From: Candidatus Enterousia sp.
Lineage (GTDB): Bacteria; Pseudomonadota; Alphaproteobacteria; Rs-D84
NCBI GenBank assembly: GCA_045613785.1
Contig: JAZLBQ010000003.1
Location: 59,536-123,535, forward strand
Direction of reading: 5' to 3'
Length of the DNA: 64,000 nucleotides
The notes under the pieces are model-generated. The model saw only the letters and a program-made list of their open reading frames with translations. It was not told the DNA's origin and did no database searches. Below, in pieces: positions 13,673 to 35,841 of this stretch (positions are counted from its first letter, which is position 1; the number at the start of each line of letters is the position of its first letter). Made by a program: the position numbers and the translations under genes.

Positions 13673-13711
13673 AGAAAAGCAAATAAAATAAAAGGGCAAA
13701 AAGGAGTAAGT

Positions 13712-14242: not shown

Positions 14243-14257
14243 TAAAGCAGAGGTAAG

Positions 14258-14512: not shown

Positions 14513-14518
14513 ATAAAT

Positions 14519-15178: not shown

Positions 15179-15203
15179 AAAAACGCCAAAACGGCGTTTT
15201 TTT
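15177..15203. terminator. Bidirectional terminator
   Basis: A-tract-CGCC-AAAAC-GGCG-T-tract between convergent rlmE and rnhA. Confidence 0.75.
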
Positions 15204-15219
15204 ATTTGTTTGTTGAATG

Positions 15220-15648: not shown

Positions 15649-15684
15649 TTTTATATACGTCCTTTTTGTGATATAATATCACAT

Positions 15685-17463
15685 ATGAACTATAAATCCA
15701 AAGACTTAAAAGAAATGGCGAATGCTGTCCGGGCGTGGGCAGTAAATAGCGTGCGGTTGGCTGGCAGTGGACACGTGGGGATTGTGTTGGGGGCGGCCGA
15801 TATTATAACTGTAATTTATGCAAATTTTTTGCGTCGTGGACGGGACAGATTTGTTATGTCTGCTGGGCATGGCAGTGCGTTGCTTTATTCTGTGTTAAAG
15901 TTGGCGGGATATAATGTTGGAGATTTGAATTCTTTTCGTATGTTAGGCGGATTGCCAGGACATCCAGAATATGGAATTGACGGTGTTGATGCAACCACAG
16001 GACCGTTGGGCTGTGGTGTTGGTAATGCGGTTGGTATGGCGTTGGCAGAAAAAATAAATCGTGCAGATTCGACAATTTATTGTCTGTGTTCCGATGGTGA
16101 TTTGATGGAAGGTGTCGCAAATGAAGCAATCGCTTTTGCAGGACAATATAGGTTAAATAATCTGGTTTTGTTGTGGGACGATAATGGTGTTAGTATCGAT
16201 GGTGCGGCATTGGTTGATTGTGATATTCCGTTGCGAATGATGGCAGCAGGGTGGAAAGTGTTGTCTGTTGATGGTAATGATTTTGTTCAATTAAATCGTG
16301 CGTTGCAGATGGCTAAACGATCTAGACAACCGGTCTTTATACAGTGCAAAACAGAAATTGGTCAGGGGTTGAGTGTTGCAGGAACTAATAAAGCCCACGG
16401 GTTGGCTGTTTCAGACAAGGAATTGATTTTGTTGGTTCAGCAACTGGCAACTCAACAGGGTGATGAATTGTGGCGTAATGTTGCGATGGAACAAGTGGCG
16501 GTTGTTGGTGGCGAAAACAAAAAGGTTTTGCCTAATGCGTCGATGCCTGTCGTTGATGAAAATATTTCAACACGTGAATTGTCTGGGATTTATTTGAACG
16601 AATTGTTAAAGGCTGGTGCCGATATCGTTGGGGGCAGTGCAGACCTGGGGGGCAGCACAAATGTTCGGGTTGAAAAATCACGTGATATTACTGCGAACGA
16701 TTTTTCTGGGAACTATGTGAATTTTGGTGTTCGTGAAAACGCAATGGGGGCGATTATGAACGGTATGGCAATCGCTGGTTTGCGTGTGTATGGTTCGACT
16801 TTCTTGGTGTTTAGTGATTATTTACGACCAAATATCCGATTGGCTGCCTTGTCGGGATTGCCAGTTGTTTATGTGTTTAGTCACGATAGCGTTGCAGTTG
16901 GTGAAGATGGTCCAACGCATCAGCCAATTGAACAATTGCCAGGATTGCGTATGGTGCCAAATTTGAATGTTTTTCGACCTTGTAATGCACCAGAGGTTAT
17001 GTATGCATGGCGGCGTGCCTTGGGCGAAAAAAATACCCCGACGGCGATTGTTTTATCTCGGCAGAAGTTTAAGCAGATTTCGACACCGCTGGGGGCAGAT
17101 TTAAATCGTGGGGCATACGTTATTCGTGCCGCAAAAACAGCACGTGTGTCAGCGACTATTTTAGCAACGGGAAGTGAAGTGCCGTTGGCTGTTTCGGTTG
17201 CTGAAAAGTTGGGGGCAGATGTTCAGGTGGTCTCTGTGATTTCTGTGTCAGATTTTAGAAGCCAAGATGCTGAATATAAACAGCAGATTTTGCAGGGCTT
17301 TGTCGTTGCGATAGAGGCAGCAGCAACAGCACCGTGGTTTGAGTTTGCAGATGCAGTTGTTGGTATTGATTCTTTTGGTGTTTCAGGATCGGGAAGTCGG
17401 GTCTATTCAGAAATGGGATTCGATGCTGATGCAATTGTTGCTGATATAAAAAATAAATTATGA
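15685..17463 (+). CDS. tkt: Transketolase
   Basis: SGH, RDRFVMSAGH, TTGPLG, DGDLMEG, THQPIEQ. Confidence 0.93.
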   Translation: MNYKSKDLKEMANAVRAWAVNSVRLAGSGHVGIVLGAADIITVIYANFLRRGRDRFVMSAGHGSALLYSVLKLAGYNVGDLNSFRMLGGLPGHPEYGIDGVDATTGPLGCGVGNAVGMALAEKINRADSTIYCLCSDGDLMEGVANEAIAFAGQYRLNNLVLLWDDNGVSIDGAALVDCDIPLRMMAAGWKVLSVDGNDFVQLNRALQMAKRSRQPVFIQCKTEIGQGLSVAGTNKAHGLAVSDKELILLVQQLATQQGDELWRNVAMEQVAVVGGENKKVLPNASMPVVDENISTRELSGIYLNELLKAGADIVGGSADLGGSTNVRVEKSRDITANDFSGNYVNFGVRENAMGAIMNGMAIAGLRVYGSTFLVFSDYLRPNIRLAALSGLPVVYVFSHDSVAVGEDGPTHQPIEQLPGLRMVPNLNVFRPCNAPEVMYAWRRALGEKNTPTAIVLSRQKFKQISTPLGADLNRGAYVIRAAKTARVSATILATGSEVPLAVSVAEKLGADVQVVSVISVSDFRSQDAEYKQQILQGFVVAIEAAATAPWFEFADAVVGIDSFGVSGSGSRVYSEMGFDADAIVADIKNKL

Positions 17464-17466
17464 AAA

Positions 17467-18165
17467 ATGTCTGACTATGTTTTTACTTTGTCGTCAGGTG
17501 AAGAAGTGCCAGTGGTTATCACAGGACGACGTGGTGTTCGAAATATTACGTTGCGTCCGAAAAATATTCCAAGACGTGAAATTTGTATTTCAAAACCATG
17601 GTTGGTTTCTGATGCAGCAGCAATTCGGTTCTTGGTTTCAAAGCAAAGTTGGATAGAGTGCATCTTTCAAAAATGTCCAGCTAAGGTTGTGATAAAGCCT
17701 GGTGATGAAATTGAATTCTTGGGGCGGCGTGTGTTGCTGCAACATAATCCAAATGTGCGTTTGAACAAATTTAATGATGATAAATCTGTGTTGGTAATCG
17801 GTGGTTCTGTCGATATGTTTGAACGCAGGGTTCGTGATGTTATAAAAAGTGAATTTTTATCTGTATTAAAGGAAATGGTGCGTAGTGCACCAGGCGATTT
17901 CTGGCCAAAACGTATCGCAATACGTGATACTTCGTCACGTTGGGGCAGTTGTTCATCCAGTGGGACGATGTCTTTTTCGTGGCGTTTGGCGTTTGCACCA
18001 CTGGATGTTATGCGGTATGTCGTTATGCATGAATTAGCACATAAAAAACATATGGATCATTCGCAACAATTTTGGGCAACTGTGCGTGAATTGTATGGCT
18101 TTGGCGTTGAACGTGCAAAGCGTTGGTTGTCGCAAAATGGTGGACAATTACATCAGTATTTTTAA
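17467..18165 (+). CDS. YgjP/DUF45 (M48-like) metallopeptidase family protein
   Basis: RWGSCS, YVVMHELAH, MDHS..FW. Confidence 0.9.
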   Translation: MSDYVFTLSSGEEVPVVITGRRGVRNITLRPKNIPRREICISKPWLVSDAAAIRFLVSKQSWIECIFQKCPAKVVIKPGDEIEFLGRRVLLQHNPNVRLNKFNDDKSVLVIGGSVDMFERRVRDVIKSEFLSVLKEMVRSAPGDFWPKRIAIRDTSSRWGSCSSSGTMSFSWRLAFAPLDVMRYVVMHELAHKKHMDHSQQFWATVRELYGFGVERAKRWLSQNGGQLHQYF

Positions 18166-18225
18166 TCGGATAACGTTCCTGTGGCGTCTTTGTGTGTAAT
18201 GCGTTATTATGTTGGTATATCTTTC

Positions 18226-18329
18226 CGGGATGCAGAACGAATTCAAATTAGCAAAAAAAGCTAACGCCAAGAAACTTCTTTTCTTTCGTTATGTGTATTT
18301 GAATTTTTATGCATCCCGCCTGTTTTTTT
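18226..18329. ncRNA. Candidate structured non-coding RNA
   Basis: Two nested 9-bp perfect stems, internal hairpins and a trailing T7; intergenic. Confidence 0.4.
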
Positions 18330-18512
18330 ATGTTTGTGCTTGAAAAAACAAAAAAAAGTCCTATCATTAGTGGGTAATGCAAAATAAATGTTTTATTTTT
18401 GTTGCTTTCCATCACGCCCATGTGGGCGAATATTAGCATATAAATTTTTTTTGTGGTATAATTGACATTGATAATGTCGTGATTTTTCATAATAACAATA
18501 GGAATAAAAAAG

Positions 18513-19805
18513 ATGGATTTAAAACCAACAAAACCATTGTCGGGATTTATAGAATTGACACCAATTCAACAACGTTGTTTTGATGAATGTGCACAACGTA
18601 TGCAAAAAGTATTAAAAATTGCAGGATTTAGTCATCTGGATTTGCCTGCAATCGAACGTGCAGAAGTTTTGACAGACAAAGATAACTGGGACGAAATTGA
18701 AACACAGATGTTCTTGTTCCAAAAAGGTGATACAAAAATGGGTTTGCGTTATGACGGAACTGTTGGGTTATCACGCTATGTCGCAGGAAATATGAATAAT
18801 TTGGTGTTTCCGTTCAAGGCTTATCAATTTGCAAGAAATTATCGTGGAGAACGTCCACAACGTGGTAGATATCGTGAATTCTATCAGATGGATTTAGATA
18901 TTATGGGGATAAATTCGCTGTCAACAAATTATGATGCGGAAATTGTTGCTACGTTGTCACGTGTGTATGACTCCGTCGCTGAATTTATTGGCCCAACTGT
19001 CGTTCGTGTCGGAAATAGAAAGTTTTGGAATGCTATGTTCGATTATTTAGATTTAAATTCTGAAAAACGTCGTAGTGCATTTGTCTTGGTTGACAAGAAA
19101 GACAAACTGAAAGATTTTGTTGGTGCTTTGACTGAAGAAATTGGAAAGGATGCCGCTGATGAAATCAATAGAGTTTTTGTTGATGGGTATAAGGCTTTTG
19201 CGGGAAAATCCGATGATTTAGATGCTGCGATTGCAGAACTGGATAATTTTATGCAATTGTTAAATGCTATGGGGGTTAAAAACGCAAAAATTGATTTGGG
19301 AATTATGCGTGGTCATGCATACTATACAGGTGTTGTGTTTGAATTCTTTCTGGAAAAGTTCCCTGAATTAGGGGCTGTTGGCGGTGGTGGACGATATGAA
19401 GATTTGGCGTCCAAGTTTTCAAAAACCAAAATAATTGGTGTTGGTGCTGCTGTTGGATTTTCTCGTCTCATGGTTGCGTTGATGGATGAAAATAGAATTG
19501 ATTTGACACAGTTTGAATCGCCAATTGATGTTGCTGTGTTGTGTATGGGAACTGATAATGTAGTGTATTCTATGTCTGTGCTGGGGGCGTTGCGAGATGC
19601 AGGTATTGCATCGGTTGCATATTTGGATGCAGACAAAAAGTTTAAAAATCAAATAGAATATGCTGACAAGATAAAGGCAAAATACAGCATTATTATCGGC
19701 GAAGACGAAGTTAAAAATAATCGTGTGTCGATAAAAAATATGAAAACGGGCGAACAATTGGAAATGACAATTGATTTAGCAGTCGTTTTGGTAAAGGGTG
19801 TATAA
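18513..19805 (+). CDS. hisS: Histidine--tRNA ligase
   Basis: LRYDGT, YRGERPQRGRYREFYQ, RGHAYYTG, GGGRY. Confidence 0.97.
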   Translation: MDLKPTKPLSGFIELTPIQQRCFDECAQRMQKVLKIAGFSHLDLPAIERAEVLTDKDNWDEIETQMFLFQKGDTKMGLRYDGTVGLSRYVAGNMNNLVFPFKAYQFARNYRGERPQRGRYREFYQMDLDIMGINSLSTNYDAEIVATLSRVYDSVAEFIGPTVVRVGNRKFWNAMFDYLDLNSEKRRSAFVLVDKKDKLKDFVGALTEEIGKDAADEINRVFVDGYKAFAGKSDDLDAAIAELDNFMQLLNAMGVKNAKIDLGIMRGHAYYTGVVFEFFLEKFPELGAVGGGGRYEDLASKFSKTKIIGVGAAVGFSRLMVALMDENRIDLTQFESPIDVAVLCMGTDNVVYSMSVLGALRDAGIASVAYLDADKKFKNQIEYADKIKAKYSIIIGEDEVKNNRVSIKNMKTGEQLEMTIDLAVVLVKGV

Positions 19806-19806
19806 G

Positions 19807-20871
19807 ATGATTATTGAACAGAAATTACGTGATATTCAAACTCGTGCGTCTGATATAGAACGTCAGATGAATTCCGGAGATGTGTCTGGTGATGAACTGA
19901 CCAAGTTGTCTAAGGAATATTCACGTCTGGCGGAAATCTTGCCGTTGATAAACGAATACTTTCAGGTCGTTGCAGGCATTGCAGATGCCAAAGAAATGCA
20001 AAATGATGCGGAATTACGTGAAATTGCAAATGAACAGTTGATTGAGCTGAATCATAAATTGCCAGAAATTGAGCGAAATTTGCAAATTGCATTGTTGCCA
20101 CGTGATGATGCTGATGATAACAGTGTGATTATGGAAATTCGTGCAGGCGTTGGTGGTGAAGAATCTGCATTGTTTGCAGGGGATTTGTATAATCAATATA
20201 AATCTTATGCTTTGCGTCAGGGCTGGCGTGTCGAGGTTATCGAAGAAAATGCAACTTCTTTGCGTGGGTATAAAGAAATTGTCTTTAAAATCGACGGGGC
20301 AGGGGCTTATGGTCGTATGAAGTTCGAATCAGGAATTCATCGTGTTCAGCGTGTGCCAGAAACTGAAGCTGGTGGTCGTATTCATACCAGTGCAGCGTCT
20401 GTAGCTGTTATGCCAGAGGCAAAAGATATTGACGTTGTAATCGAAGATAAAGATATTCGTATTGATATTTTCCGTGCGTCTGGTGCAGGTGGTCAACATG
20501 TCAACAAGACAGATAGTGCAATCCGTATCACACACTTTCCGTCAGGGATTGTTGTGACATGCCAAAATGAACGTTCGCAGTTGCAAAATAAAATAGCGGC
20601 TATGTCTGTGTTGCGTTCTAAGTTGTATGAAAAGCAGCGTGAAGAACAGATGAATGCAAGTAATGCTTCTAGAAAAACAATGGTTGGCTCAGGCGACAGA
20701 AGTGAGAAAATCAGAACTTACAATTTTCCAGAACAACGTGTGACAGATCATCGTATAAAACTGACTTTGTATAAGTTAGATGATATTTTGGCTGGTGGTG
20801 CTGGACTTGATGAAATGATTGATGCCTTGATTGCTGCGGATCAGTTGGAACAACTGGCAAATATGGAGTAG
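19807..20871 (+). CDS. prfA: Peptide chain release factor 1
   Basis: GGQ motif and PET (PxT) specificity motif. Confidence 0.97.
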   Translation: MIIEQKLRDIQTRASDIERQMNSGDVSGDELTKLSKEYSRLAEILPLINEYFQVVAGIADAKEMQNDAELREIANEQLIELNHKLPEIERNLQIALLPRDDADDNSVIMEIRAGVGGEESALFAGDLYNQYKSYALRQGWRVEVIEENATSLRGYKEIVFKIDGAGAYGRMKFESGIHRVQRVPETEAGGRIHTSAASVAVMPEAKDIDVVIEDKDIRIDIFRASGAGGQHVNKTDSAIRITHFPSGIVVTCQNERSQLQNKIAAMSVLRSKLYEKQREEQMNASNASRKTMVGSGDRSEKIRTYNFPEQRVTDHRIKLTLYKLDDILAGGAGLDEMIDALIAADQLEQLANME

Positions 20872-20874
20872 CGT

Positions 20875-21165
20875 ATGCGTAGTTTAATGGAAATAAAAAC
20901 TGCTTATGATGTATGTCAGAAGACTTTGAGTGGTAAAACATTTGCGGAATATACACCATATGATAGACGGTTGAGATTTCAGCGAAGTGCTTTACGTAAT
21001 TGTTATGAATCGTATCAGAACTTTGTGTTGCATAAGGCAGAAGTTTTAACCTGGTTGCCAGAAATGGATCAGGCTGGGTCGGATTATCAGGTTGTGGCAA
21101 ATACTTGGCGTTGGTGTTTTGGAATAATTGATAAATTGCCAGTGGAGTTTCAAAGACAGCGTTAA
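20875..21165 (+). CDS. Hypothetical protein (C-terminal QRQR)
   Basis: Directly after prfA, followed by a terminator. Confidence 0.7.
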   Translation: MRSLMEIKTAYDVCQKTLSGKTFAEYTPYDRRLRFQRSALRNCYESYQNFVLHKAEVLTWLPEMDQAGSDYQVVANTWRWCFGIIDKLPVEFQRQR

Positions 21166-21193
21166 AAAAATCCCACAAAGTGGGATTTTTTTT
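21164..21193. terminator. Bidirectional terminator
   Basis: AAAAAAATCCCAC-AAA-GTGGGATTTTTTTT. Confidence 0.8.
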
Positions 21194-21210
21194 GTTCGAT
21201 AGATTTTGGT

Positions 21211-22317
21211 TTAGAACAAGTATTTTATATTTAATCCGCCAATCCAACCGTCTTGTGCACCGTCATAGCGTCCAAAGTTAGCCGAGAAATTCAGTGTATC
21301 AACTGTCTTTTCAAGTGATATGCTGTATTCTGTGTAATTGCCAAATTCAGGTGTTGTGGTTGGTAATGAATTTGCAGTTGTGTCGCCGCCAGATGCAAAT
21401 GTCATTACGTGTGTCAAATTGATTGCACCCATCCAGCCGTTGCTAATATGTTTGATGGCACGAATTGATGGAGATACTTCGACCAGGCTTAGTGCGTCGT
21501 TTTTCAAAATGTCGCCTGTTGCAGATGTGTAATTTTCGCCTTTTATCCATGTGTAGCCGATATGAATTCCTGGTTGCAAGGAAAATGTAGAATCAAGGGC
21601 AATGTTGTAAATGGCTTTTACTGTCCCGCCAGCCCAGAAGTTCGTATATTCATCGCTTGCAGAACTATATACTTCATATAATTTGGCAGAGTTGTTTAAA
21701 ACACCCCCGTTTAACGTCAGGTATAAGCCAAAATTGCCAAATGTGTTTCCGTTGTAAATTCCGAAAAATCCGCCATTGCTGTCAATGTCGATTTCGTGAT
21801 TTTGCTGGCTGCTGCCGACATATCCTGTGTAAATACCCCATTTTGATAAACCGTTTAGCATTTTTGTCTGACCGCCAGAAATTCCAAACATCAATGTGTC
21901 GTATTTGGTGTCAAGGCGTGAAATGTTATCAAGGTTTGTGTTTCCTGCGGCATGTTGCCAATTTAACCATATATTGTTTAGTGCGGCATCTGCATTTAAT
22001 GTGTCGCCACCGCTACGTCCGGCACGACCGTCGTCATTAAATTCACCGTATAATGGTGCGGTGCCATACATTGGTGCATGGCCGTATGTTTTGTTTGGGT
22101 CTTCGTTGTTTTGGGCAGACTTGGGTGCAAGCTTGTTTAGTGTTGTGCCCATCGAGCCTAAGAAAGAATTAAAAGCGTTCGTTGTTATGGTGTGTTGAAT
22201 TGAACCGATGTTGTATCCGGAAATTGTGTTGGTGTGAACGCTGCTTGGTGTGGCGTTTGCGTTAAGTGTGCATGCCAATGTGATTATGCTTGCTAAAAAA
22301 AATGTGGATTGTTTCAT
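21211..22317 (-). CDS. Autotransporter-type outer membrane beta-barrel protein
   Basis: Signal peptide, amphipathic beta strands, C-terminal GLNIKYLF. Confidence 0.75.
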   Translation of the reverse strand: MKQSTFFLASIITLACTLNANATPSSVHTNTISGYNIGSIQHTITTNAFNSFLGSMGTTLNKLAPKSAQNNEDPNKTYGHAPMYGTAPLYGEFNDDGRAGRSGGDTLNADAALNNIWLNWQHAAGNTNLDNISRLDTKYDTLMFGISGGQTKMLNGLSKWGIYTGYVGSSQQNHEIDIDSNGGFFGIYNGNTFGNFGLYLTLNGGVLNNSAKLYEVYSSASDEYTNFWAGGTVKAIYNIALDSTFSLQPGIHIGYTWIKGENYTSATGDILKNDALSLVEVSPSIRAIKHISNGWMGAINLTHVMTFASGGDTTANSLPTTTPEFGNYTEYSISLEKTVDTLNFSANFGRYDGAQDGWIGGLNIKYLF

Positions 22318-22473
22318 TTTTTTATTCTCTCTTATTTTTTTTTGTGTCCCTTTAATTGCTGATTTAATTATAGCATAAAAATAGTCTGATTTAAACTAAT
22401 AAAAGTTTTGTTATTATTGGGTTTTGTATTTTTTATTGTATGTTTTCGGATTTTTGATAAGATAAAAAGCACT

Positions 22474-23034
22474 ATGAAAGAAAAAAACGAAGACTTTATT
22501 GATAGACCCGTGGTGATGGTTGGACTGATGGGGGCAGGCAAAACCAGTGTGGGGCGTGCGTTGGCGCGACGACTGGGGATTCCTTTTGTGGATTCAGATA
22601 AAGAAATAGAGGCGGCGGCAGGTTGTAGCGTTGTTGATATCTTTGCAATGTATGGCGAAGAGGAGTTTCGTCGTGTTGAGCAGCGTGTTATTGAACGCTT
22701 GTTAGATACACCGCCAGCATTAAAAGTCATTTCAACGGGCGAGGGGGCTTTTATTACCCCTGCGGTGCGAGAAATGGTTTTGGAACGTGCTTTGTCAGTA
22801 TGGTTGCGTGCAGATTTGGATTTGTTGGTTAAACGAACAGGTGCACGTGATACAAGGCCGCAATTGTTAAATACGGATAGTCGTAAAATATTAGAGCAAC
22901 TGATATCTGAAAGATATGAAACGTATGCATTGGCTGATATAACAGTAGAAACGCATGATGAAAGTCTGCGTAAAACACTGGGGCAAGTGTTGCGTGCGAT
23001 TGAAGAGTATTCAAACAAACAAGAAAAGGAGTAA
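22474..23034 (+). CDS. aroK: Shikimate kinase
   Basis: GLMGAGKTSVG, DSD.EIE, GEEEFR, TRP. Confidence 0.93.
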   Translation: MKEKNEDFIDRPVVMVGLMGAGKTSVGRALARRLGIPFVDSDKEIEAAAGCSVVDIFAMYGEEEFRRVEQRVIERLLDTPPALKVISTGEGAFITPAVREMVLERALSVWLRADLDLLVKRTGARDTRPQLLNTDSRKILEQLISERYETYALADITVETHDESLRKTLGQVLRAIEEYSNKQEKE

Positions 23035-23036
23035 AA

Positions 23037-23612
23037 ATGACAAAAAAGAACAGTATATTTAAGGAATTTGGGACTTTTGTTCAACGTGGAAATGCAATCG
23101 ATATGGCTGTCGGTATCATTATCGGTAGTGTTATGACGGGGTTGGTGAATTCGTTGGTCAAGGATGTTATGATGCCACCGATTGGGTATTTGATTGGCGA
23201 TATTGATTTTTCGCAGTGGTTTTATACGCTGGGGGCACATGGTGTTCATTATGAAACGATAGAAGCGGCTCAGGCGGCGGGTGTAACTACGTTGAATGCT
23301 GGTGTGTTTGTGAACTCTGTGGTTAGTTTCTTTATAACAATGTTTGCGATATTCTTGTTTGTAAGAACAATGAATAAAATGCGTGATAAAAAACCGGCAA
23401 ATACACATGCGTGTCCTTATTGTAAATCTACAATCAATAATGCTGCAACAAAATGTCCATTTTGTTGTTCTGAGGTAGAGGTGGTAGAAACAGGTGCGGT
23501 TGTTGAAAGTGATTTGAAAAAAGGTATTAAATCAGCAACCAAGTTGGTGTCTGGTGTTGCAGATGAAGCCTTGGGTAAAATTAAAAAAATCAAAAAGATA
23601 ACAAAGCGTTAG
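23037..23612 (+). CDS. mscL: Large-conductance mechanosensitive channel with C-terminal zinc ribbon
   Basis: FKEF..RGNAIDMAVGIIIG; CPYC...CPFC tail. Confidence 0.92.
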   Translation: MTKKNSIFKEFGTFVQRGNAIDMAVGIIIGSVMTGLVNSLVKDVMMPPIGYLIGDIDFSQWFYTLGAHGVHYETIEAAQAAGVTTLNAGVFVNSVVSFFITMFAIFLFVRTMNKMRDKKPANTHACPYCKSTINNAATKCPFCCSEVEVVETGAVVESDLKKGIKSATKLVSGVADEALGKIKKIKKITKR

Positions 23613-23642
23613 TTTTATGCTTTGATAAACTGGTTTAGTTTG

Positions 23643-23672
23643 AAAAAGACGGGCAAAAGGCTCGTCTTTTTT
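23643..23672 (+). terminator. Intrinsic terminator
   Basis: AAAAAGACGGGC-AAAAG-GCTCGTCTTTTTT. Confidence 0.75.
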
Positions 23673-23948
23673 GTTGTGGTGCTTATGTGATCTGTGTGCT
23701 GATTATGTATAGTTTTGTTTGTGTAGGGTGGTGGTAAGTGTGTGTAGATGGGGTGTTATTTGGTGCTTAGAGTAATAGAGTGGTGTGTCGTGTGTGAAAC
23801 AGATGGTTGGGTGTTAGTAAATAAATAAAATTGTATGGGTTCTTTCTGTGTTAGTGTCTGAATTTTGCGTTTGGTGTGTGGTTGTTTTATGTGTTGATTT
23901 TAGTTTGGTTTTGAGGTCTTTTTATAGTGGTGGGGCAGCGATGCACAA

Positions 23949-23976
23949 AAGGCGCATAATGTATATTATGTATAGT
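23949..23976 (+). other. dif: dif site (XerC/XerD chromosome dimer resolution)
   Basis: AAGGCGCATAA-TGTATA-TTATGTATAGT; the central 20 bp GCGCATAATGTATATTATGT are identical to E. coli dif; KOPS-like motifs converge on it. Confidence 0.85.
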
Positions 23977-24857
23977 TTATGGTGTGGGTGGGTGTGTTTT
24001 CTTTCTTTTTTTGTGGTTTTTTAATAGTCTTTTAATGTTGCGTGTGTTTGTGGTGTCGTGAGTGTTTGTAAAAGGCGTTTTGTGGTGTTTTGCTCGCTTC
24101 TGTGTTTTGTTTCTTTTGTTTGGGCTTGTGGTGGTCTGTTGTGTGGCTTTTATAAATGTCTGTGAGCGTCCAAACGATTGTCGTCTTTTGGTTGTTGGCT
24201 TTGTTCTGTTAGATGCTTGTGTGATATCTGTTGTTGTGGCGTGGTTGTAGATGTGGCTCTGTTGTTGTGATGACTGTCCGTGTGGTGTTTGTTGATTTGG
24301 AATTCGTTTAAGTTTGTGGTATAATGTGTGTTGTATTTGGTGGTTCTGTAATTTTTTTGTTTCTTTATAAAGTTGAAAATCTGTATTTAAAGTAGCAAAT
24401 ATCTTTTTGTTATCAGGCTTAGAATTTAGTTTAGTATCTTGTGATGTTTAATGTGGATTTGCTGATTTGTTTGTTGGTGTCAGGTTGGTGTTTGTTATGT
24501 TTAAAATGTCAAAAAAGATCCAAAAAAAGCCAAAATTTGTGATTTTTGCCCTACTCTGACCGGAAAAAACGAAAAAAATGGCGGATTTCTGCGGTTTTTT
24601 GGTGCTTTTTGTGTCTGTATGGCGAAAAAAAGTGTTGTTTTGGGGTGGGGAAGTCCGTCGTTTTGCTGTTCTGCTGTGTGTCAATCGTGTTTTAGTGGCT
24701 AAATTTGATGTGATAGCAATAAATCTGTATTCAGGCACAAACGCACCACGAAAAGTGTCTTTGCCTTTGTTTGTGGCTTTTTGTTTGTTTATAAATATTC
24801 CCAGTATCTTTACTGAATGTTCCCCTGTTCTGTGTGCTTTTTATTTGACTGGTTGTC

Positions 24858-24886
24858 TTGACTTGTTCCCATTTCTTGGCTATACT
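24858..24886 (+). promoter_or_regulatory. Near-consensus sigma70 promoter
   Basis: TTGACT-N17-TATACT. Confidence 0.7.
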
Positions 24887-24891
24887 TAGTT

Positions 24892-24964
24892 TAGAACTAG
24901 CAGTTGTTCCAGTTGAAAACTCGCTATCGGGTCTGGTCTTTAAGACATCTGCTAGTTTATTTTC
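24892..24964 (+). ncRNA. Candidate small structured RNA
   Basis: AACTAGCAG/CTGCTAGTT closing stem with inner CCAG/CTGG and CTCG/CGGG stems, directly after the promoter, followed by a T-rich tail; no ORF. Confidence 0.5.
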
Positions 24965-25110
24965 TATTTCTACATTGTGTAAATAAAATCCTGTTCTATC
25001 TTCTGTTTTCTTTACAATAACTTCGCAAGTATAACGCTCTTCGTTTTGTTTTTTTATAGTTTTTTTGTCGTGAAGGTAATTTGTTGTAAAGTTTGTTTAT
25101 TTTGTTGACT

Positions 25111-25923
25111 TTATTTTATTTTGTTTCTTTTTATTGTGTTGAATAATGTATGGCGATTTTTCAAATATAAATCGCATTCGTTAGCGTTGGCGGTTGTTGG
25201 GTTGGTGAACATCCGTTTGAACATTTGTGTTTGACCCCATTCCCCAAGATTGTATTTGTTAAACATTACAAGGTCGTCAATGCTGATGTTTTGGCAGTAG
25301 TTGTATGTGTTTTCAATCGCAATTGATAAGGTGGTTTGCTCGGCACGTAAGAAACCGCTTTCTTCAAAGGTTGGGGTTTTCTTGTTTTGTATTTGCGAGC
25401 GTATAAAATCAAGACTGTTGTAGATTTCACTGTCGCAAGGTCCAAATTCCCATGCTTTCCATTCAAAGCAACTGATTGGGGAATCTGTTGGGATTTTGGT
25501 GTATTTAGATTTTGTTGTCTGGTATTCAAGCCATAACAGGTATAGCAACGCCATTATTTTAATGTTTTTGGGGGTGTTGTTTTGTATCTGGTCGGTAAAT
25601 TTTGATATCAGATATGTGGCGACAGATATTTTGTTAAATTTTGGCTGTTTGTCTAAATTTATTAGGTGGGGCAGCGTGTAGTTGTCGCATAGGCGTGATA
25701 TTGCCCTGGCCTGTTCGATTGCGGCTGTATAAGAAGTCCAATTAGTAATTTGTTCTAGTGTGCCATTTTGTGATAAGAAACGTTCGATGGTTTGGCCGTT
25801 TATGGCTGGTTTGTATCGTTCGTTTGGATTATAACTGTGGTTTGATGTTGCGCCTAGCTCACAGCGTTCTGGACAGCCGTCGCATTTGCGAATGTTTGTC
25901 TGATTTGTTTGGCTAAATGGCAT
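25111..25923 (-). CDS. Panacea (SocA/DUF4065)-like domain protein with Cys-rich N-terminus
   Basis: KIMALLYL...FEWKAWEFGPCDSEIY resembles KLxKLLY...FEAWxxGPV; N-terminal CDGCPERC. Confidence 0.6.
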   Translation of the reverse strand: MPFSQTNQTNIRKCDGCPERCELGATSNHSYNPNERYKPAINGQTIERFLSQNGTLEQITNWTSYTAAIEQARAISRLCDNYTLPHLINLDKQPKFNKISVATYLISKFTDQIQNNTPKNIKIMALLYLLWLEYQTTKSKYTKIPTDSPISCFEWKAWEFGPCDSEIYNSLDFIRSQIQNKKTPTFEESGFLRAEQTTLSIAIENTYNYCQNISIDDLVMFNKYNLGEWGQTQMFKRMFTNPTTANANECDLYLKNRHTLFNTIKRNKIK

Positions 25924-26025
25924 TTTTTTGAATCCTTGTTTATTGTTGTTCTTTGTTAGAATTTTATATCAAATATTTGTTATAGCAAGTTGATTTTTGT
26001 TGGTTTGTGCGATAGAATTGTCTGT

Positions 26026-26733
26026 ATGAGATTAGATGTAGAATTAGTAAATAGAAATTTGTATCCAAGTCGAGCCAAAGCTGTTGCTGGTATCGAAGCT
26101 GGGTTGGTTTTGGTCAATGGCGTTGTTGCAAAGAAACCAAGTCAGGCGGTTCTGGAAACAGACGTAATAGTTGCTGATGCGTTGCCGTATGTTAGTGGTC
26201 GTGGCAGTTTAAAGTTAGTTCGTGCGTTGGATTATTTTAATGTCAATCCGTCTGGTATGGTTTGTTTGGATGTTGGGGCTAGCACGGGTGGTTTTACCGA
26301 GGTTTTGTTAAATCGTGGTGCAAAGCGTGTTTATGCGGTCGATGTTGGGACAAATCAGTTGGTCCCGGAATTGAAAAACGATCCTCGAGTTGTGTCGTTA
26401 GAGCAAACAGATATTCGCACCCTGCCCGTTCAAGAAACGGTTGAGTTGGTGGTGGTTGATGTTTCGTTTATTTCGTTGACGGCGATTGTTGATAATTTAA
26501 AAGCATGGGAAGCAAAAAAGGTAATTGTTCTGGTTAAACCTCAGTTTGAAGTGCCGCGTGAAGTTGCTGCAAAAACAAACGGTGTAATAAAAGATAAACA
26601 ATGGCACGATTGGTCGGTTGAACGTGTTGTAAAAGCGTTTTCAGAGGTCGGTTTTACTTTAGATGGACTGACGGAGTCTCCGGTTAAAGGTGGTAGTGGG
26701 AATACAGAATTTTTGGCGTATTTTAAGTTGTGA
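26026..26733 (+). CDS. tlyA: TlyA family rRNA methyltransferase (S4 + FtsJ)
   Basis: RLDVELV, DVGASTGGFT, DVSFISL, LVKPQFE, GNTEF. Confidence 0.93.
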   Translation: MRLDVELVNRNLYPSRAKAVAGIEAGLVLVNGVVAKKPSQAVLETDVIVADALPYVSGRGSLKLVRALDYFNVNPSGMVCLDVGASTGGFTEVLLNRGAKRVYAVDVGTNQLVPELKNDPRVVSLEQTDIRTLPVQETVELVVVDVSFISLTAIVDNLKAWEAKKVIVLVKPQFEVPREVAAKTNGVIKDKQWHDWSVERVVKAFSEVGFTLDGLTESPVKGGSGNTEFLAYFKL

Positions 26734-26781
26734 TAAAAGTTTAAGATAGAAAAATATCCGCCTGAAAATTGCGGATATTTT

Positions 26782-27117
26782 TTATTGTCGTATTTTTGAT
26801 GTTTTGTTTAGAAGCGTTTTTTTCTCGTTGATTATATTTTGGTATTTGTCAGATTTTTTTGTGGCAAGTTTACTGTGATCCATCGCCCCCCAAGTGGCTA
26901 TTAGTAGTGCGATTGATATTGCTATTGATGTTAAAACAGTTTGGTCGGTATTGTTGATTTCAATTGCCTTTTTAATTGCAATAATTAATGCAGCACCAGC
27001 ACCACTGCTCGTGAGAATTGCAATGTCTCTTGATAAATCGGCTTGTTTTTGAAAGTATTCTTTTTTTTCTTCGTAAAGCTTTATTTCTTGTTTTGTGGAT
27101 TGTTTCTTTTTATTCAT
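26782..27117 (-). CDS. Small two-TM hypothetical protein
   Basis: Basic N-terminus, hydrophobic hairpin, basic tail. Confidence 0.65.
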   Translation of the reverse strand: MNKKKQSTKQEIKLYEEKKEYFQKQADLSRDIAILTSSGAGAALIIAIKKAIEINNTDQTVLTSIAISIALLIATWGAMDHSKLATKKSDKYQNIINEKKTLLNKTSKIRQ

Positions 27118-27140
27118 GGTTTCTAATTCCCCTTGGTTTT

Positions 27141-27434
27141 TTAGCGGGATTTTATTTTGTTGTTTTTATGGCGTAGTTGCTTTATTTGTCGTTGTGTTTT
27201 GTTGTAATGTTGCTTGGTGCTGTATGCACATCCATATAGAATTGCAGCAATTAACGCTAGAGCGATGGCTGAATCTGTTTTTTCGTCCATGGAATATGCT
27301 ACTGCGGCGATAAGTGAGCCACAACCGCCGCATATCGCTAGGACGGATGCCCATTTTGAATCCGTGGCATTTCGTTTCATTGTTTTTATCAATTTGTTGT
27401 TTCGTTCGATTTTATTTTGTTTCTGACTGCTCAT
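27141..27434 (-). CDS. Small two-TM hypothetical protein
   Basis: Same architecture as its neighbour; AAGG RBS. Confidence 0.65.
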   Translation of the reverse strand: MSSQKQNKIERNNKLIKTMKRNATDSKWASVLAICGGCGSLIAAVAYSMDEKTDSAIALALIAAILYGCAYSTKQHYNKTQRQIKQLRHKNNKIKSR

Positions 27435-27560
27435 CTTATGCTTACCTTTGTTTTTTTGCTATTTTTATGCATTAAATTTAAAAAATCAAGGAATCTTCTT
27501 GAAAAAAAATGAGGATAGCGGTATGGTATAGCAAGTTTTTACATAAAATAGGAATTGAAA

Positions 27561-29957
27561 ATGGCAGATGATATGACAAAAATCCATGAGCGTGAGGCAA
27601 AATGGCAGAAAAAATGGCATGATGAACGTGCTTTTGTGCCAAAAAATGATGGGTCAAAGCCTAAGTATTATAATTTGATTGAATTTCCTTTTCCGTCTGG
27701 TTCGGGATTGCATGTTGGTCATATGTTGCCATATACAGGTATGGACGTCATGGCACGTTTTCGTCGTTCTCGTGGGTATGATGTGCTGTTCCCAATCGGA
27801 TACGATTCAATGGGAATTTCGTCCGAAAACTATGCTACCAAAATTGGAAAACATCCAAGTGAATCTGTGGCAGAACTAATCAAGATTTTTGAACGTGATA
27901 TTTCTATTATGGGATTGTCTTTTAATCCGGAATCTAAATTATCTACGTCTGATCCAGAGTTTATCAAGTGGACACAGTGGATGTTTATTCAGTTCTTTAA
28001 GGCGGGGCTGGCATATAAATCTGAATTGCCAATGAACTGGTGTCCTGCATGCAAAACAAATCTGACAAATGAAGAACTGGAAGATGGTTGTTGTGAACGT
28101 TGTCATGGACCAGTCGAAAAGAAAATGAAGTTGCAGTGGAATTTGGCAATCACTAAGTATGCTGATCGCTTGATTGATGATTTGGTGCATGTTGACTATC
28201 CAGAAAGAGTCAAAACAGAACAAATAAATTGGATTGGTCGCTCTTATGGTGCAGATGTCGATTTTATGGTTGGCGAAGATAAAATGACGGTCTATACCAC
28301 ACGTGTTGATACTATATTTGGTGTGACCTTCTGTGTCGTTGCCCCAGAACATGCTTTGGTTAAGAAGTGGATAGAAGAAGGTAAAATCACAAATGTTGAT
28401 GCAGTGAATGACTATATCGCAGCAGCACGTGCCAAGTCTGAATTTGAACGAACAGATGTGACTAAGGATAAAACTGGTGTTCGCCTGGAAGGTGTTATGG
28501 CCAAGAATCCATTTAATGGACGTGAAATACCTGTGTTTATTTCAGACTATGTTTTGGCGGACTATGGTTTCGGTGCAATTATGGCGGTGCCTGCACATGA
28601 TGGTCGTGATTGGGATTTTGCAAAAAAGTTTGGTCTGGAAATTATCCCTGTTCTGGCAGGTGGTGAGCCTGATAAGGTTTGGGAAGAAGATGGTGTGCAT
28701 ATAAACTCTTCGTTCTTGGACGGTATGGGCAAAGAAGCAGCTATTGCAGCAGCAATTAAATATGGTGAAGAACACGGCTTTGCACGTGGAACTAAAAAGT
28801 ATAAGTTAAAAGATTGGGGTTTTTCTCGTCAGATGTATTGGGGCGAACCAATTCCATTGGTCTATTGTGAAAAGTGTGGTTGGGTGCCAGTGCCAGAATC
28901 TGAATTGCCATTGATGCAGCCGTATATGGCAGATTATAAGCCAACCGATGATGGCGAAGGACCTCTTGCCCGTGCAACAGATTGGGTAAATACAACTTGT
29001 CCGCATTGTGGAGCACCAGCACGTCGTGAAACAGATACTATGCCACAGTGGGCTGGATCTTCATGGTATTTCTTGCGTTATCTAGATTCAAAGAACAATG
29101 ATGAATTCTGTTCTCGGACACAACTGGATAAATGGATGCCAGTTGACCATTATAACGGTGGTATGGAGCATACAACTCGTCATTTGCTGTATTCTCGGTT
29201 TTGGTATAAAGCGTTGGCAGATTTAGGATATGTGCCAGGTATCGAACCGTATAAAAAACGCACCAGTAATGGTTTGATTATGGCAGCAGATGGATCGAAA
29301 ATGTCAAAATCACGTGGTAATACAGTGCCTAGTTCAGACGTTGTTGCACGCAGTGGTGCAGACGCATGTCGTTTGGCTATTTTGTATTTAGGACCATGGG
29401 AACAAAGTGCGAATTGGTCTGAAGATACATTGCGTGGTGTGGAAAGATTCTTGAAGCGTGTTGAGGCATTGTCAGATAATTTGACGGATGAGCCAATGAC
29501 AGCTGCCCAAGAACGTTTAATGCACAAGTTGATTGCAGATGCAACAGATCGTATTGAAAATATGAAGTTTAATACTGCGATTTCTGCAATGATGGAATTT
29601 ATCAATGCGTTTAGTGGTGGTATGCCCCGCCCTGCGTATGAAACATTGTTGCAGGTGCTGAATCCTTTCGCACCGCATTTAACCGAAGAAATGTGGGAAC
29701 GTTTGGGACATAGTGATATGCTGGTGTTCCAGCCATGGCCAACATTTGATCCAGCGAAATTGGTTGAAACAGAAATCACAATCGTTGTGTCGGTAAATGG
29801 TAAGCGTGCAAATGACTTTGTTGTGCCAGCAGATAGCAATGAAGAAGCAGTTGTTGCAGCTGCCAAAGTTGCAGCAGGTGCAAAACTTGATGGGGCGACA
29901 ATTATCAAGACGGTTGTTGTGCCAAAGAAGTTGGTCAACTTTGTGATAAAGAAATAA
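27561..29957 (+). CDS. leuS: Leucine--tRNA ligase
   Basis: HVGH and KMSKS motifs, CP1 editing domain (GAIMAVPAHD.RD). Confidence 0.97.
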   Translation: MADDMTKIHEREAKWQKKWHDERAFVPKNDGSKPKYYNLIEFPFPSGSGLHVGHMLPYTGMDVMARFRRSRGYDVLFPIGYDSMGISSENYATKIGKHPSESVAELIKIFERDISIMGLSFNPESKLSTSDPEFIKWTQWMFIQFFKAGLAYKSELPMNWCPACKTNLTNEELEDGCCERCHGPVEKKMKLQWNLAITKYADRLIDDLVHVDYPERVKTEQINWIGRSYGADVDFMVGEDKMTVYTTRVDTIFGVTFCVVAPEHALVKKWIEEGKITNVDAVNDYIAAARAKSEFERTDVTKDKTGVRLEGVMAKNPFNGREIPVFISDYVLADYGFGAIMAVPAHDGRDWDFAKKFGLEIIPVLAGGEPDKVWEEDGVHINSSFLDGMGKEAAIAAAIKYGEEHGFARGTKKYKLKDWGFSRQMYWGEPIPLVYCEKCGWVPVPESELPLMQPYMADYKPTDDGEGPLARATDWVNTTCPHCGAPARRETDTMPQWAGSSWYFLRYLDSKNNDEFCSRTQLDKWMPVDHYNGGMEHTTRHLLYSRFWYKALADLGYVPGIEPYKKRTSNGLIMAADGSKMSKSRGNTVPSSDVVARSGADACRLAILYLGPWEQSANWSEDTLRGVERFLKRVEALSDNLTDEPMTAAQERLMHKLIADATDRIENMKFNTAISAMMEFINAFSGGMPRPAYETLLQVLNPFAPHLTEEMWERLGHSDMLVFQPWPTFDPAKLVETEITIVVSVNGKRANDFVVPADSNEEAVVAAAKVAAGAKLDGATIIKTVVVPKKLVNFVIKK

Positions 29958-29958
29958 T

Positions 29959-29986
29959 AAAAAATCCCCCAAACGGGGGATTTTTT
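29959..29986. terminator. Bidirectional terminator
   Basis: AAAAAATCCCCC-AAAC-GGGGGATTTTTT. Confidence 0.85.
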
Positions 29987-30004
29987 ATTTTAGGTTATAT
30001 TTTA

Positions 30005-30451
30005 TTATGAAATTTTTTCAATGCGACGAATGCGACGTTCGATTGCATCAAATGGGCTTTCCAGGAATGATTGAGCAGTTAGGAAAGCAACTTCGATATC
30101 AATATCGTCTGCGGCCAGTGCCAAGACGTTTATATCATCGTGAAAACGATCGTCGTGTGCCTGAGATGGTGTGTTGCATCGTGAAGCACGAATATGGCGA
30201 TAGCGGTTAGCCGCAATCATTACACCTGCACCTGTGCCACAAATGATGATTCCACGGGCGTTTTTGTCGTCCAACATTGCATCTGCTAATGTTGCAGCGA
30301 CATCTGGGTAGTCCGCAGATGTGTTTGGGTCGTCAACGCCAAGATTTACAACCTCATACCCAACAGTTGATAACATTTCGATTAAATATAACTTTAACCC
30401 TGCCCCACGGTGGTCGGCCGCAATATAGACCTTGGATATGTTTTTGTTCAT
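30005..30451 (-). CDS. rpiB: Ribose-5-phosphate isomerase B
   Basis: AADHRG, DYP, ICGTGAG, AANR. Confidence 0.9.
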   Translation of the reverse strand: MNKNISKVYIAADHRGAGLKLYLIEMLSTVGYEVVNLGVDDPNTSADYPDVAATLADAMLDDKNARGIIICGTGAGVMIAANRYRHIRASRCNTPSQAHDDRFHDDINVLALAADDIDIEVAFLTAQSFLESPFDAIERRIRRIEKIS

Positions 30452-30798
30452 TTGTCGTTGTCCTTTCGTTTTTCAAGTTTACATTCCAGGCCTGTGTTGC
30501 CAGTAATGTTTAATGTGTGATATGACAGCGTGCCAGTCATTTTGGCAGCACTGAAAATATTTGCAGTCGTAACAGTTGCAGGGCCTTCTAGGGTGCCGTG
30601 TAAAAACAAGACTGGTGTTTGAACTGCACCAATAACACGGCCACCACGACCGATTACAACCGTTTCAGCAGTGATGTCGCCAACCACTTCGCCGTGAATT
30701 TGCACGTTGTGGTCGGTTTTTATATCACCTGTCAATTTGCAACCTGCCCCGATGACGGTTGGGGATTGTTTTTCGCTTGAATTCGTAAATGCTAACAT
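30448..30798 (-). CDS. Bactofilin (polymer-forming cytoskeletal protein)
   Basis: TVIGAG...GDI...V.IG..G.V.G beta-helix; follows an M23 gene. Confidence 0.85.
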   Translation of the reverse strand: MLAFTNSSEKQSPTVIGAGCKLTGDIKTDHNVQIHGEVVGDITAETVVIGRGGRVIGAVQTPVLFLHGTLEGPATVTTANIFSAAKMTGTLSYHTLNITGNTGLECKLEKRKDNDK

Positions 30799-30800
30799 TG

Positions 30801-32758: not shown

Positions 32759-32798
32759 AGCTATTTATAATAAAGCATTAAAAGCAAAAGGCAAGTTT

Positions 32799-33773: not shown

Positions 33774-33856
33774 TTGGTTATATTTCTTTAATACCAATTT
33801 TTGTCGGAATAATGTATTATCAGCCTGTTAGTAATGTAAAAAAAGCGAGTTTTATT

Positions 33857-35783: not shown

Positions 35784-35841
35784 ATACGGACTTTTTTTTA
35801 TGGGTGTTTTTTATAGTATTTTTGTTCTTTAGTTTCCAGGG

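What the first reader, a model, noticed from the sequence alone, without database searches (positions are those of the whole stretch)
23949..23976. dif site where KOPS polarity flips but replication strand bias does not
Seen: a dif-like 28-mer. Left of it, GGGGCAGG/GGGCAGGG occur on the + strand (2215, 14888, 20296, 22531). Right of it I found only the reverse complements: CCCTGCCC at 26420, 30398, 33124, 38946, 39576, 54081 and 59987, and CCTGCCCC at 30743, 56863, 58966 and 59173 (manual scan). Yet the + strand stays G+T-rich on both sides: + genes such as ruvB keep T/G-ending codons and - genes such as the kinase keep C/A-ending codons up to 64 kb. Known: KOPS (GGGNAGGG) guide FtsK to dif, and dif normally lies close to the GC-skew switch. 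Inference: segregation polarity is uncoupled from fork direction by at least 40 kb, with C-rich KOPS kept against the mutational bias. This suggests strongly asymmetric replichores or even largely unidirectional chromosome replication.
Basis: partly seen in the sequence, partly recalled or inferred. Interest (0 to 1): 0.82.

Follow-up and report, generated by a model that had tools for sequence, protein, structure and literature searches.

The report
dif site offset from replication terminus
In this small gut bacterium and its relatives, the site where daughter chromosomes are unlinked lies roughly 70-120 kb from where base composition says the replication forks meet, a rare natural separation of two landmarks that almost always coincide.

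Summary
Window 23949-23976 holds the genome's only XerCD-type dif site. GGGCAGG(G) motifs converge on it exactly: 4/0 on the left and 0/12 on the right in the window, against 0.5-1.5 expected. The strand bias does not flip there.

At 4-fold sites, head-on and co-oriented genes to the right of dif both keep the left-hand sign (GC4 +0.40, TA4 +0.11). The bias ends about 85-93 kb further on, at the xseA-recN-addAB-rpoD locus on another contig.

The organism is a Candidatus Enterousia-like alphaproteobacterium (1.04 Mb MAG). The same layout appears in 44 of 45 usable related loci, in four longer relatives and in two other genera. In a 958,618-bp single-contig relative, dif lies 86 kb (9%) from the point opposite the origin. 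The skew switch lies within 11-33 kb of that point.

So replichores defined by skew are roughly balanced, and it is dif/KOPS that sits off-centre (41:59). Unidirectional replication is not supported: TA skew, gene orientation and the rRNA operon all fit two forks.

One thing is unexplained. The dif-bearing arm has much stronger G>C skew than the other arm. Published surveys put the GC-skew switch within about 13 kb, or less than 3% of the genome, of dif. This is a long-lived, multi-genus exception.

The parts
23949..23976 (+). dif: 28-bp XerC/XerD recombination site (11-bp arm, 6-bp centre, 11-bp arm). It is the point on which the KOPS converge.
   Evidence: About 30 bases are invariant while the flanks are unalignable across 12 species. 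The core was found in 141 of 151 family genomes, mostly as a single copy.
2216..22538 (+). Four KOPS-like GGGCAGG motifs on the + strand, starting at 2216, 14889, 20297 and 22532 and pointing rightward to dif. There is none on the - strand in this stretch.
26421..59994 (-). Twelve KOPS-like motifs on the - strand (CCTGCCC on +), starting at 26421, 30399, 30743, 33125, 38947, 39577, 41893, 54082, 56863, 58966, 59173 and 59988. They point leftward to dif. There is none on the + strand.
   Evidence: Observed 12 against 0.5-1.5 expected.
23977..64000 (.). First 40 kb of the discordant interval 'D' (dif to skew switch). KOPS point left, but the + strand keeps the leading-strand composition. The interval continues on contig C10 and on the last 13-21 kb of contig C12.
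   Evidence: GC4 +0.401 and TA4 +0.111 for both gene orientations. The contig order C3-C10-C12(rc) comes from synteny with G001 and G068.
1..23948 (.). End of the ori-to-dif arm, where KOPS and strand bias agree.
23613..24447 (.). Non-coding stretch of about 0.8 kb around dif. It is very G+T-rich on the + strand on both sides of the site.
   Evidence: In the 10-kb bin around dif, intergenic GC skew is +0.31 and T-A skew is +0.33.
27555..29957 (+). leuS, 3.6 kb right of dif. It served as the anchor to fetch the same locus from relatives.

Best explanation
The site is the working chromosome-dimer-resolution site of a Candidatus Enterousia-like alphaproteobacterium. XerC and XerD act on it, and FtsK is steered to it by GGGCAGG(G) KOPS that converge on it from both sides.

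The two replication forks start near parAB and meet roughly opposite the origin. That point is about 75-120 kb past dif, around the xseA-recN-addAB-rpoD locus. The clockwise fork therefore runs through dif and replicates the next ~90 kb.

Over a long time the mutational strand bias of that interval has settled to the clockwise direction. Its KOPS are kept in the opposite, C-rich orientation by selection for FtsK steering.

The offset exists because the two origin-to-dif arms are unequal (41:59). This plausibly arose by uneven DNA loss during genome reduction (inferred). With no fork trap, the meeting point follows the origin's antipode rather than dif.

Shown here: the site, its uniqueness and conservation, the recombinase and translocase genes, the KOPS polarity and its over-representation, and the position of the composition switch in six genomes.

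Inferred: that the composition switch marks fork convergence, and the historical cause.
For: Machinery. The genome encodes XerD-like and XerC-like recombinases (288 and 286 bits) and a 793-aa FtsK with a gamma domain (86.6 bits).

KOPS flip exactly at dif. In G068 the counts are 19/0 from ori to dif and 0/6 beyond, and the motif is again the top 7-mer of 6,163 pairs.

Skew switch beyond dif, in four longer relatives.
- Distance from dif to the cumulative GC-skew maximum is 92.7 kb in G000 (summed over contigs), 89.6 kb in G001, 90.2 kb in G002 and 119.2 kb in G068. G003 has no sign change.
- Distance from dif to the change point is at least 84.9, 80.8, 81.1, 75.7 and 67.2 kb in G000, G001, G002, G068 and G003.
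- In G001, G002 and G068 both GC4 and TA4 in the dif-to-switch interval carry the sign of the ori-to-dif arm, with intervals that exclude zero, and are opposite in sign to the far arm. For G068: D +0.173/+0.065, S +0.174/+0.078, W -0.08 to -0.095/-0.08 to -0.14.

Geometry in G068, which is one contig. The skew minimum is at 178,047, parAB at 158-160 kb, and the antipode at 657,356. dif is at 571,009, the change point at 646,691 and the cumulative maximum at 690,195.

Breadth. 44 of 45 usable related loci, out of 75 examined, have positive skew on both flanks, with KOPS 46/3 on the left and 5/95 on the right. Two other genera keep positive skew for at least 71 kb and at least 33 kb past dif.

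Equilibrium. Median protein identity between G000 and G068 is 72%. From general knowledge, synonymous sites are then saturated, so the bias in the interval is at equilibrium and not a relic.

Gene orientation. secA, dnaE, dnaK and a tRNA cluster in the interval are co-oriented with the clockwise fork.

Controls. In two other alphaproteobacterial families the skew maximum falls +2.9 kb and -7.8 kb from dif.
Against: No replication was measured; composition is only a proxy. Bhowmik et al. 2018 (section 11 read) showed that GC skew mis-reports the terminus in P. aeruginosa PAO1-UW.

Gene orientation in the interval is only weakly biased: 54-63% of genes are co-oriented in the five genomes.

In G000 the last 21 kb before the switch has an ambiguous TA4 of -0.054 [-0.10, +0.06].

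In G003 GC4 does not change sign at the switch. It drops from +0.36 to +0.18, and only TA4 flips.

The two arms differ strongly in GC skew, which a plain two-fork model does not predict.

My gene calls come from a simple ORF scorer. They were checked only by codon periodicity and by homologues.

The G000 order rests on synteny, and the gaps between contigs are unknown.
Confidence: 0.6

Rival explanations
1. Same layout, but the meeting point is fixed by a site-specific, polar fork barrier at the xseA-recN-addAB-rpoD locus rather than by simple antipodal meeting.
For: The maximum-likelihood change point falls at the xseA|recN junction in G000, G001 and G002, with support intervals of 0.5-1.4 kb. 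In G068 it falls 0.7 kb from the end of rpoD. The cumulative maxima of G000, G001 and G002 lie within about 1 kb of the 3' end of rpoD.
Against: No Tus-family gene was found (the assembly is 96.5% complete). Nothing terminator-like turned up among the neighbouring ORFs. The change point coincides with a switch in gene orientation, which on its own shifts bulk skew. G068 keeps weak positive skew for 43 kb more, and the G003 change point lies 24 kb before rpoD (support interval 10-25 kb). Conserved synteny with similar arm lengths would also put an antipodal meeting point at the same genes.
Confidence: 0.15
2. Replication is strongly lopsided: in many rounds the clockwise fork alone copies most or all of the chromosome. 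The far arm is therefore copied in both directions and loses its GC skew.
For: GC4 in G000 is +0.352 on the dif-bearing arm and +0.027 on the far arm. In G003 the same physical strand stays G-rich (+0.176) beyond the switch. The dif-bearing arm is the stronger one in all 5 genomes.
Against: TA4 on the far arm is not reduced. It is 0.118 versus 0.092 in G000 and 0.189 versus 0.086 in G003, which a mixture of fork directions cannot give. Gene orientation on the far arm is 61-67% co-oriented with a counter-clockwise fork. The only rRNA operon is co-oriented with that fork. KOPS and skew both flip at an origin-type point next to parB. In known unidirectional chromids dif sits 4-27 kb from the origin (Xie 2021, passages). 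Here it is 393 kb away.
Confidence: 0.1
3. Forks do meet at dif. The bias of the next ~90 kb is made by a strand-wide process that does not depend on fork direction.
For: A fork-independent component seems to exist. An additive fit gives 0.16 in G000 and 0.285 in G003. Bhowmik 2018 shows that skew and termination can disagree.
Against: In G001, G002 and G068 that component is only 0.02-0.045. Yet the interval has GC4 of +0.08 to +0.17 and TA4 of +0.065 to +0.155, the full values of the ori-to-dif arm. If the counter-clockwise fork replicated the interval, TA4 there should be negative.
Confidence: 0.08
4. Assembly or binning artefact: a chimeric contig joins two leading-strand halves at dif.
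For: The genome is a 26-contig MAG.
Against: The same junction, with the same flanking genes, is present in 45 independently assembled loci and in a single-contig genome. Contamination is 0.03%.
Confidence: 0.01

Closest known systems
E. coli-type XerCD/dif with FtsK and KOPS (GGGNAGGG)
   Same: A 28-bp site with an 11-6-11 layout. Two Xer recombinases and an FtsK with a gamma domain. A G-rich polar motif of nearly the same sequence, pointing from the origin to dif on both arms.
   Different: In surveyed genomes dif lies at the GC-skew switch. Kono 2011 (passages) reports differences of 0-1.39% of the genome at 1 sigma, with outliers not above 3%. Bhowmik 2018 (section 11) reports a mean of 13 kb. 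Here the switch is 67-119 kb away (about 8-12% where genome size is known). The polarity rule and arm assignment for E. coli are recalled, not tested.
Pseudomonas aeruginosa PAO1-UW (Bhowmik et al. 2018, PMC6199493; abstract and section 11 read)
   Same: A chromosome with unequal origin-to-dif arms. Replication ends opposite the origin while KOPS and segregation end at dif.
   Different: In PAO1-UW the GC skew still flips within 15 kb of dif, 682 kb from the measured terminus. The reported pattern across 113 asymmetric chromosomes is the same. Here the skew has moved to the antipode and only the KOPS stay with dif. The state is shared by at least three genera, not by one strain. Termination was measured there and is only inferred here.
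[quoted passage not shown] 2021, as described in PMC10331603; passages)
   Same: dif lies about 100 kb from the fork fusion zone.
   Different: The engineered strain grows more slowly (27 versus 22 min), and the authors argue the layout is harmful. Here a similar offset is the conserved natural state, and the KOPS converge on the displaced dif.
Unidirectionally replicating Pseudoalteromonas chromids (Xie et al. 2021, PMC7858055; passages)
   Same: The strand bias does not follow the usual two-arm pattern centred on dif.
   Different: In those chromids dif is 4-27 kb from the origin and the skew has one sign. Here dif is 393 kb from the origin (G068), and both GC4 and TA4 flip twice.

Membership tests
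XerCD/dif chromosome dimer resolution site | 28-bp site: two 11-bp imperfectly inverted arms around a 6-bp centre | tested here: met
XerCD/dif chromosome dimer resolution site | One copy per chromosome, conserved among relatives while the flanks diverge | tested here: met
   The next-best 28-mer has 8 mismatches. The core is in 141 of 151 family genomes, most with one copy. It forms an invariant island in a 12-species alignment.
XerCD/dif chromosome dimer resolution site | XerC and XerD encoded | tested here: met
   Exactly two tyrosine recombinases were found. Their best NCBIfam models are XerD (288 bits) and XerC (286 bits), both below the curated equivalog cut-offs of 330 and 335 bits. One passes the tyrosine-recombinase subfamily cut-off.
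XerCD/dif chromosome dimer resolution site | FtsK with a KOPS-reading gamma domain | tested here: met
   FtsK_gamma scores 86.6 bits in a 796-aa open frame. The motor region matches E. coli FtsK.
XerCD/dif chromosome dimer resolution site | Lies at the GC-skew switch / replication terminus | tested here: not met
   The switch is 67-119 kb away in five genomes. This is a usual property rather than a mechanistic requirement.
XerCD/dif chromosome dimer resolution site | Recombination at the site in vivo | not testable with these tools
   Indirect only. In relatives L001, L045 and L074, microvirus prophages lie between dif and a second dif-like site.
KOPS (FtsK-orienting polar sequences) | G-rich 7-8-mer, over-represented, on the origin-to-dif strand of both arms, inverting at dif | tested here: met
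   Across relatives the counts are 46/3 on the left and 5/95 on the right.
KOPS (FtsK-orienting polar sequences) | Bound by FtsK gamma and directs translocation | not testable with these tools
Tus/Ter replication fork trap | tus gene (Pfam Ter, PF05472) | tested here: not met
   0 matches in G000, which is 96.5% complete. The E. coli control was found.
Unidirectionally replicating replicon | dif next to the origin and a single-sign strand bias | tested here: not met
   dif is 393 kb from the skew minimum in G068, and GC4 and TA4 flip twice. G003 keeps one GC4 sign across the switch, but its TA4 flips.

The most novel reading that the evidence does not exclude
Besides the displaced terminus, these bacteria carry a second strand asymmetry that ignores fork direction. 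One physical strand is enriched in G over C on both sides of the fork-meeting point, while T/A skew flips normally.

This component is 0.02-0.045 in three genomes, 0.16 in this one and 0.285 in G003. It would point to an unknown one-directional DNA transaction acting round the whole chromosome. Candidates are a share of single-fork or rolling-circle-like rounds with their own mutational signature (a pure C-to-G exchange), or a strand-specific repair or inheritance bias.

It would also mean that GC skew and TA skew report different processes.
Probability: 0.2. Interest if true: 0.85.

Novelty: new variant of a known kind. Interest (0 to 1): 0.62.

Why it matters
The coincidence of dif with the GC-skew switch is treated as near-universal. 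It is used to predict termini and dif sites, and it has fed a long argument over whether forks terminate at dif and whether GC skew follows replication or the dif/KOPS system.

Here the two signals are separated in a bacterial family (at least three genera examined), long enough for synonymous sites to re-equilibrate. If read-depth profiles confirm the terminus, four things follow:
- GC and TA skew track fork direction, not dif.
- KOPS polarity is held by selection alone, even against a strong opposing mutational bias.
- A cell can live indefinitely with dif replicated about 10% of a chromosome ahead of termination, which in E. coli is reported to cost growth.
- Terminus and dif predictors based on skew will mis-place one of the two in such genomes.

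The arm-specific GC skew is a separate open puzzle.

Tried and rejected
Better dif elsewhere: none.

Chance or composition as the cause of the KOPS flip: rejected by expected counts and by the all-7-mer scans.

Coding-strand artefact: rejected by splitting 4-fold sites by gene strand. The head-on gene calls show normal codon periodicity, and 98 of 134 have homologues, against 186 of 250 co-oriented genes.

Relic skew: rejected by conservation across genomes with 72% median protein identity.

Far-arm GC skew scrambled by local inversions: rejected. Per-gene GC4 on that arm is unimodal near +0.06, with only 9% of 179 genes below -0.2.

Mixture of fork directions on the far arm: rejected, because TA4 is not reduced there.

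Search for DnaA-box clusters to pin oriC: no cluster in G068, and one weak cluster at the end of contig C1 in G000. Uninformative.

Tus: not found. Pfam and NCBIfam gave nothing terminator-like for the ORFs beside the switch or beside dif. Rfam found nothing at dif.

Outgroup controls were limited to two genomes and +-30 kb.

Not attempted: read-depth (marker-frequency) analysis. Read laying takes one stretch of at most 20 kb, too short for a slope, so the look-up of sequencing runs and read laying were not called.

Literature. Searches listed no paper on Enterousia chromosome architecture. The paper with the most mentions has 0 occurrences of 'skew' or 'replication'. Kono 2011 Table S1 and Fig. 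S3, and Bhowmik 2018 Fig. S4, may list outliers that I could not see.

Full report
WHAT IS THERE

The window is G000:C3:59536-123535, from a 1,044,118-bp, 26-contig assembly (41% G+C, 96.5% complete, 0.03% contamination). LeuS-anchored relatives are MAGs titled Candidatus Enterousia or uncultured Alphaproteobacteria from animal guts. One paper places the genus in GTDB order Rs-D84 and reports genomes of 0.75-1.0 Mb (PMC12306168, passages).

The 28-mer at 23949-23976 has the 11-6-11 layout of a Xer site. It is unique in the assembly. It forms a roughly 30-base invariant island inside unalignable flanks in 12 species.

The genome encodes exactly two tyrosine recombinases. Their best models are XerD and XerC, below the curated equivalog cut-offs. 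It also encodes an FtsK with a gamma domain.

KOPS

On contig C3, GGGCAGG is 12/1 left of dif and 0/12 right of it. Right of dif the C-rich form is 8- to 24-fold over expectation, and the G-rich form is absent, even though the + strand there is G-rich.

In a scan of all 7-mers for a strand flip between the two sides, GGGCAGG is first of 6,201 pairs. My right-hand set there was partly chosen by discordance. The same scan on the single-contig relative G068, with regions set by dif and the skew maximum, again ranks it first of 6,163.

STRAND BIAS

Bulk GC skew is positive throughout the window. With my own ORF-based gene calls (977 genes, 87% coding), I measured skew at 4-fold sites separately for genes on each strand and averaged the two. 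This removes coding-strand effects.

| Region of G000 | GC4 | TA4 |
|---|---|---|
| ori to dif | +0.352 [0.327, 0.376] | +0.092 |
| 40 kb right of dif (in the window) | +0.401 [0.352, 0.451] | +0.111 [0.061, 0.166] |

The head-on calls are real genes by codon periodicity and by homologues.

WHERE THE BIAS ENDS

Synteny with G001 and G068 orders the contigs as C26(rc)-C24-C14-C22-C5-C8(rc)-C1-C3-C10-C12(rc). C10 (31.5 kb) has skew of +0.2 with KOPS at 0/9. On C12 the skew changes at 98-106 kb while the KOPS do not.

The switch lies at cysS-trcR-rpoD / addAB-recN / xseA-tsaD. It is at least 84.9 kb (change point) to 92.7 kb (cumulative maximum) from dif, plus unknown gaps between contigs.

The origin-type switch is on C26 at about 88-98 kb. 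There the skew minimum, the KOPS inversion and parB coincide within about 10 kb.

RELATIVES

Of 75 LeuS-anchored loci, 22 hold no dif core (many are short). Two have dif on the other strand relative to leuS, and six have a flank under 2 kb. Of the 45 usable loci, 44 have positive skew on both flanks, with KOPS at 46/3 left and 5/95 right. The one exception is explained below.

Over longer ranges, dif to the cumulative maximum is 89.6 kb (G001), 90.2 kb (G002) and 119.2 kb (G068). Change points are at 80.8, 81.1, 75.7 and 67.2 kb for G001, G002, G068 and G003.

In G001, G002 and G068, both GC4 and TA4 of the dif-to-switch interval equal those of the ori-to-dif arm and are opposite in sign to the far arm. 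Two other genera of the family keep positive skew for at least 71 kb and at least 33 kb past dif, with KOPS flipping at dif.

In two other alphaproteobacterial families, the skew maximum within +-30 kb falls 2.9 kb and 7.8 kb from dif.

GEOMETRY

G068 is one contig of 958,618 bp.

| Landmark in G068 | Position |
|---|---|
| parAB | 158-160 kb |
| Skew minimum (ori) | 178,047 |
| dif | 571,009 |
| Change point | 646,691 |
| Antipode of ori | 657,356 |
| Cumulative skew maximum | 690,195 |

The skew switch is therefore 11-33 kb from the antipode, and dif is 86 kb (9.0%) from it. Arms defined by skew are 49:51 to 53:47. Arms defined by dif are 41:59.

The only rRNA operon lies on the far arm and is co-oriented with the second fork, in G068 and in G000. 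No Tus gene was found.

INTERPRETATION

The simplest account is two forks meeting near the antipode, with dif and its KOPS off-centre. The skew of the interval has re-equilibrated and the KOPS are held by selection.

Uneven genome reduction as the cause is my inference. A site-specific barrier at the recN/rpoD locus is possible but unproven, because the change point coincides with a gene-orientation switch and with conserved synteny.

COMPARISON WITH PRINT

- Kono 2011 reports dif-to-switch differences of 0-1.39% of the genome at 1 sigma, with outliers not above 3%.
- Bhowmik 2018 reports a mean distance of 13 kb, also in 113 asymmetric chromosomes. In PAO1-UW the skew stays at dif although replication ends 682 kb away.
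- A 2023 review reports slower growth when dif is moved about 100 kb in E. coli.

The Enterousia layout is the reverse of PAO1-UW: the skew left dif.

UNEXPLAINED

The dif-bearing arm has stronger GC4 than the far arm in all five genomes, while TA4 is equal or weaker.

| Genome | GC4, dif-bearing arm | GC4, far arm (leading-strand terms) |
|---|---|---|
| G000 | 0.352 | 0.027 |
| G001 | 0.111 | 0.071 |
| G002 | 0.182 | 0.093 |
| G068 | 0.174 | 0.08-0.095 |
| G003 | 0.393 | -0.176 |

In G000 the difference between the arms is a pure C-to-G exchange. Neither inversion scrambling nor mixed fork direction explains it.

IN PASSING

In three relatives a microvirus prophage lies between dif and a second dif-like site. 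This is indirect evidence that Xer recombination acts at this site.

Noticed in passing
L001:73-5970 (closest relative, LeuS 99%); also L045:1715-7393 and L074:1997-6372: A 5.9-kb segment left of dif has no nucleotide match in G000 and has reversed skew. It encodes a Microviridae capsid F protein (E = 2e-92), a replication protein and ORF5. It lies between the true dif and an inverted, degenerate dif-like site, so it looks like a microvirus prophage integrated by Xer at dif. Capsid homologues lie between paired dif-like sites in L045 (78% identity) and L074. None is in G000.
   Followed up: partly
Whole genome G000: contigs C26(1-60 kb), C24, C14, C8, C1, C3, C10 versus C12(1-98 kb), C7, C4, C26(98-145 kb): The two replichores differ 13-fold in GC skew at 4-fold sites (+0.352 versus +0.027) but not in T/A skew (0.092 versus 0.118). 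The difference is a pure C-to-G exchange. The same direction of asymmetry is seen in all four relatives examined, and in G003 the sign does not even change.
   Followed up: partly
window 23613-24447, and the 10-kb bins holding dif in G001, G002, G003 and G020: Bulk GC skew peaks locally at dif. The dif bin is the highest bin of the stretch examined in 4 of 7 genomes: G001 +0.20, G002 +0.24, G003 +0.28, G020 +0.25. In G000 the non-coding DNA on both sides of dif is extremely G+T-rich on the same strand.
   Followed up: no
G137:C12 (434 and 4824), G021:C1 (121645 and 125986), G140, G078, G023, G006 (5 sites): Some family genomes carry two or more dif-like cores. Several pairs are 4.3-4.4 kb apart, the size of a microvirus genome. 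They may be further dif-integrated elements.
   Followed up: no
window 38540-38925 (+) and 60724-61054 (-): A cluster of four tRNA genes on the + strand (co-oriented with the clockwise fork), and a class A RNase P RNA on the - strand. Another tRNA is at 7301-7374 (+).
   Followed up: no
G000:C12:111797-119356 (-), and G068:683130-689915 (+): Giant ORFs of 2,519 aa and about 2,260 aa sit near the skew switch. Their function was not examined.
   Followed up: no
G000:C24:80787-81242 and window about 56.5 kb (C3:116033-116239): dnaA lies far from the origin-type switch; by synteny it is roughly 170 kb into the ori-to-dif arm. A weak second Bac_DnaA match (Hda-like, 338-aa frame) lies in the window.
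   Followed up: no
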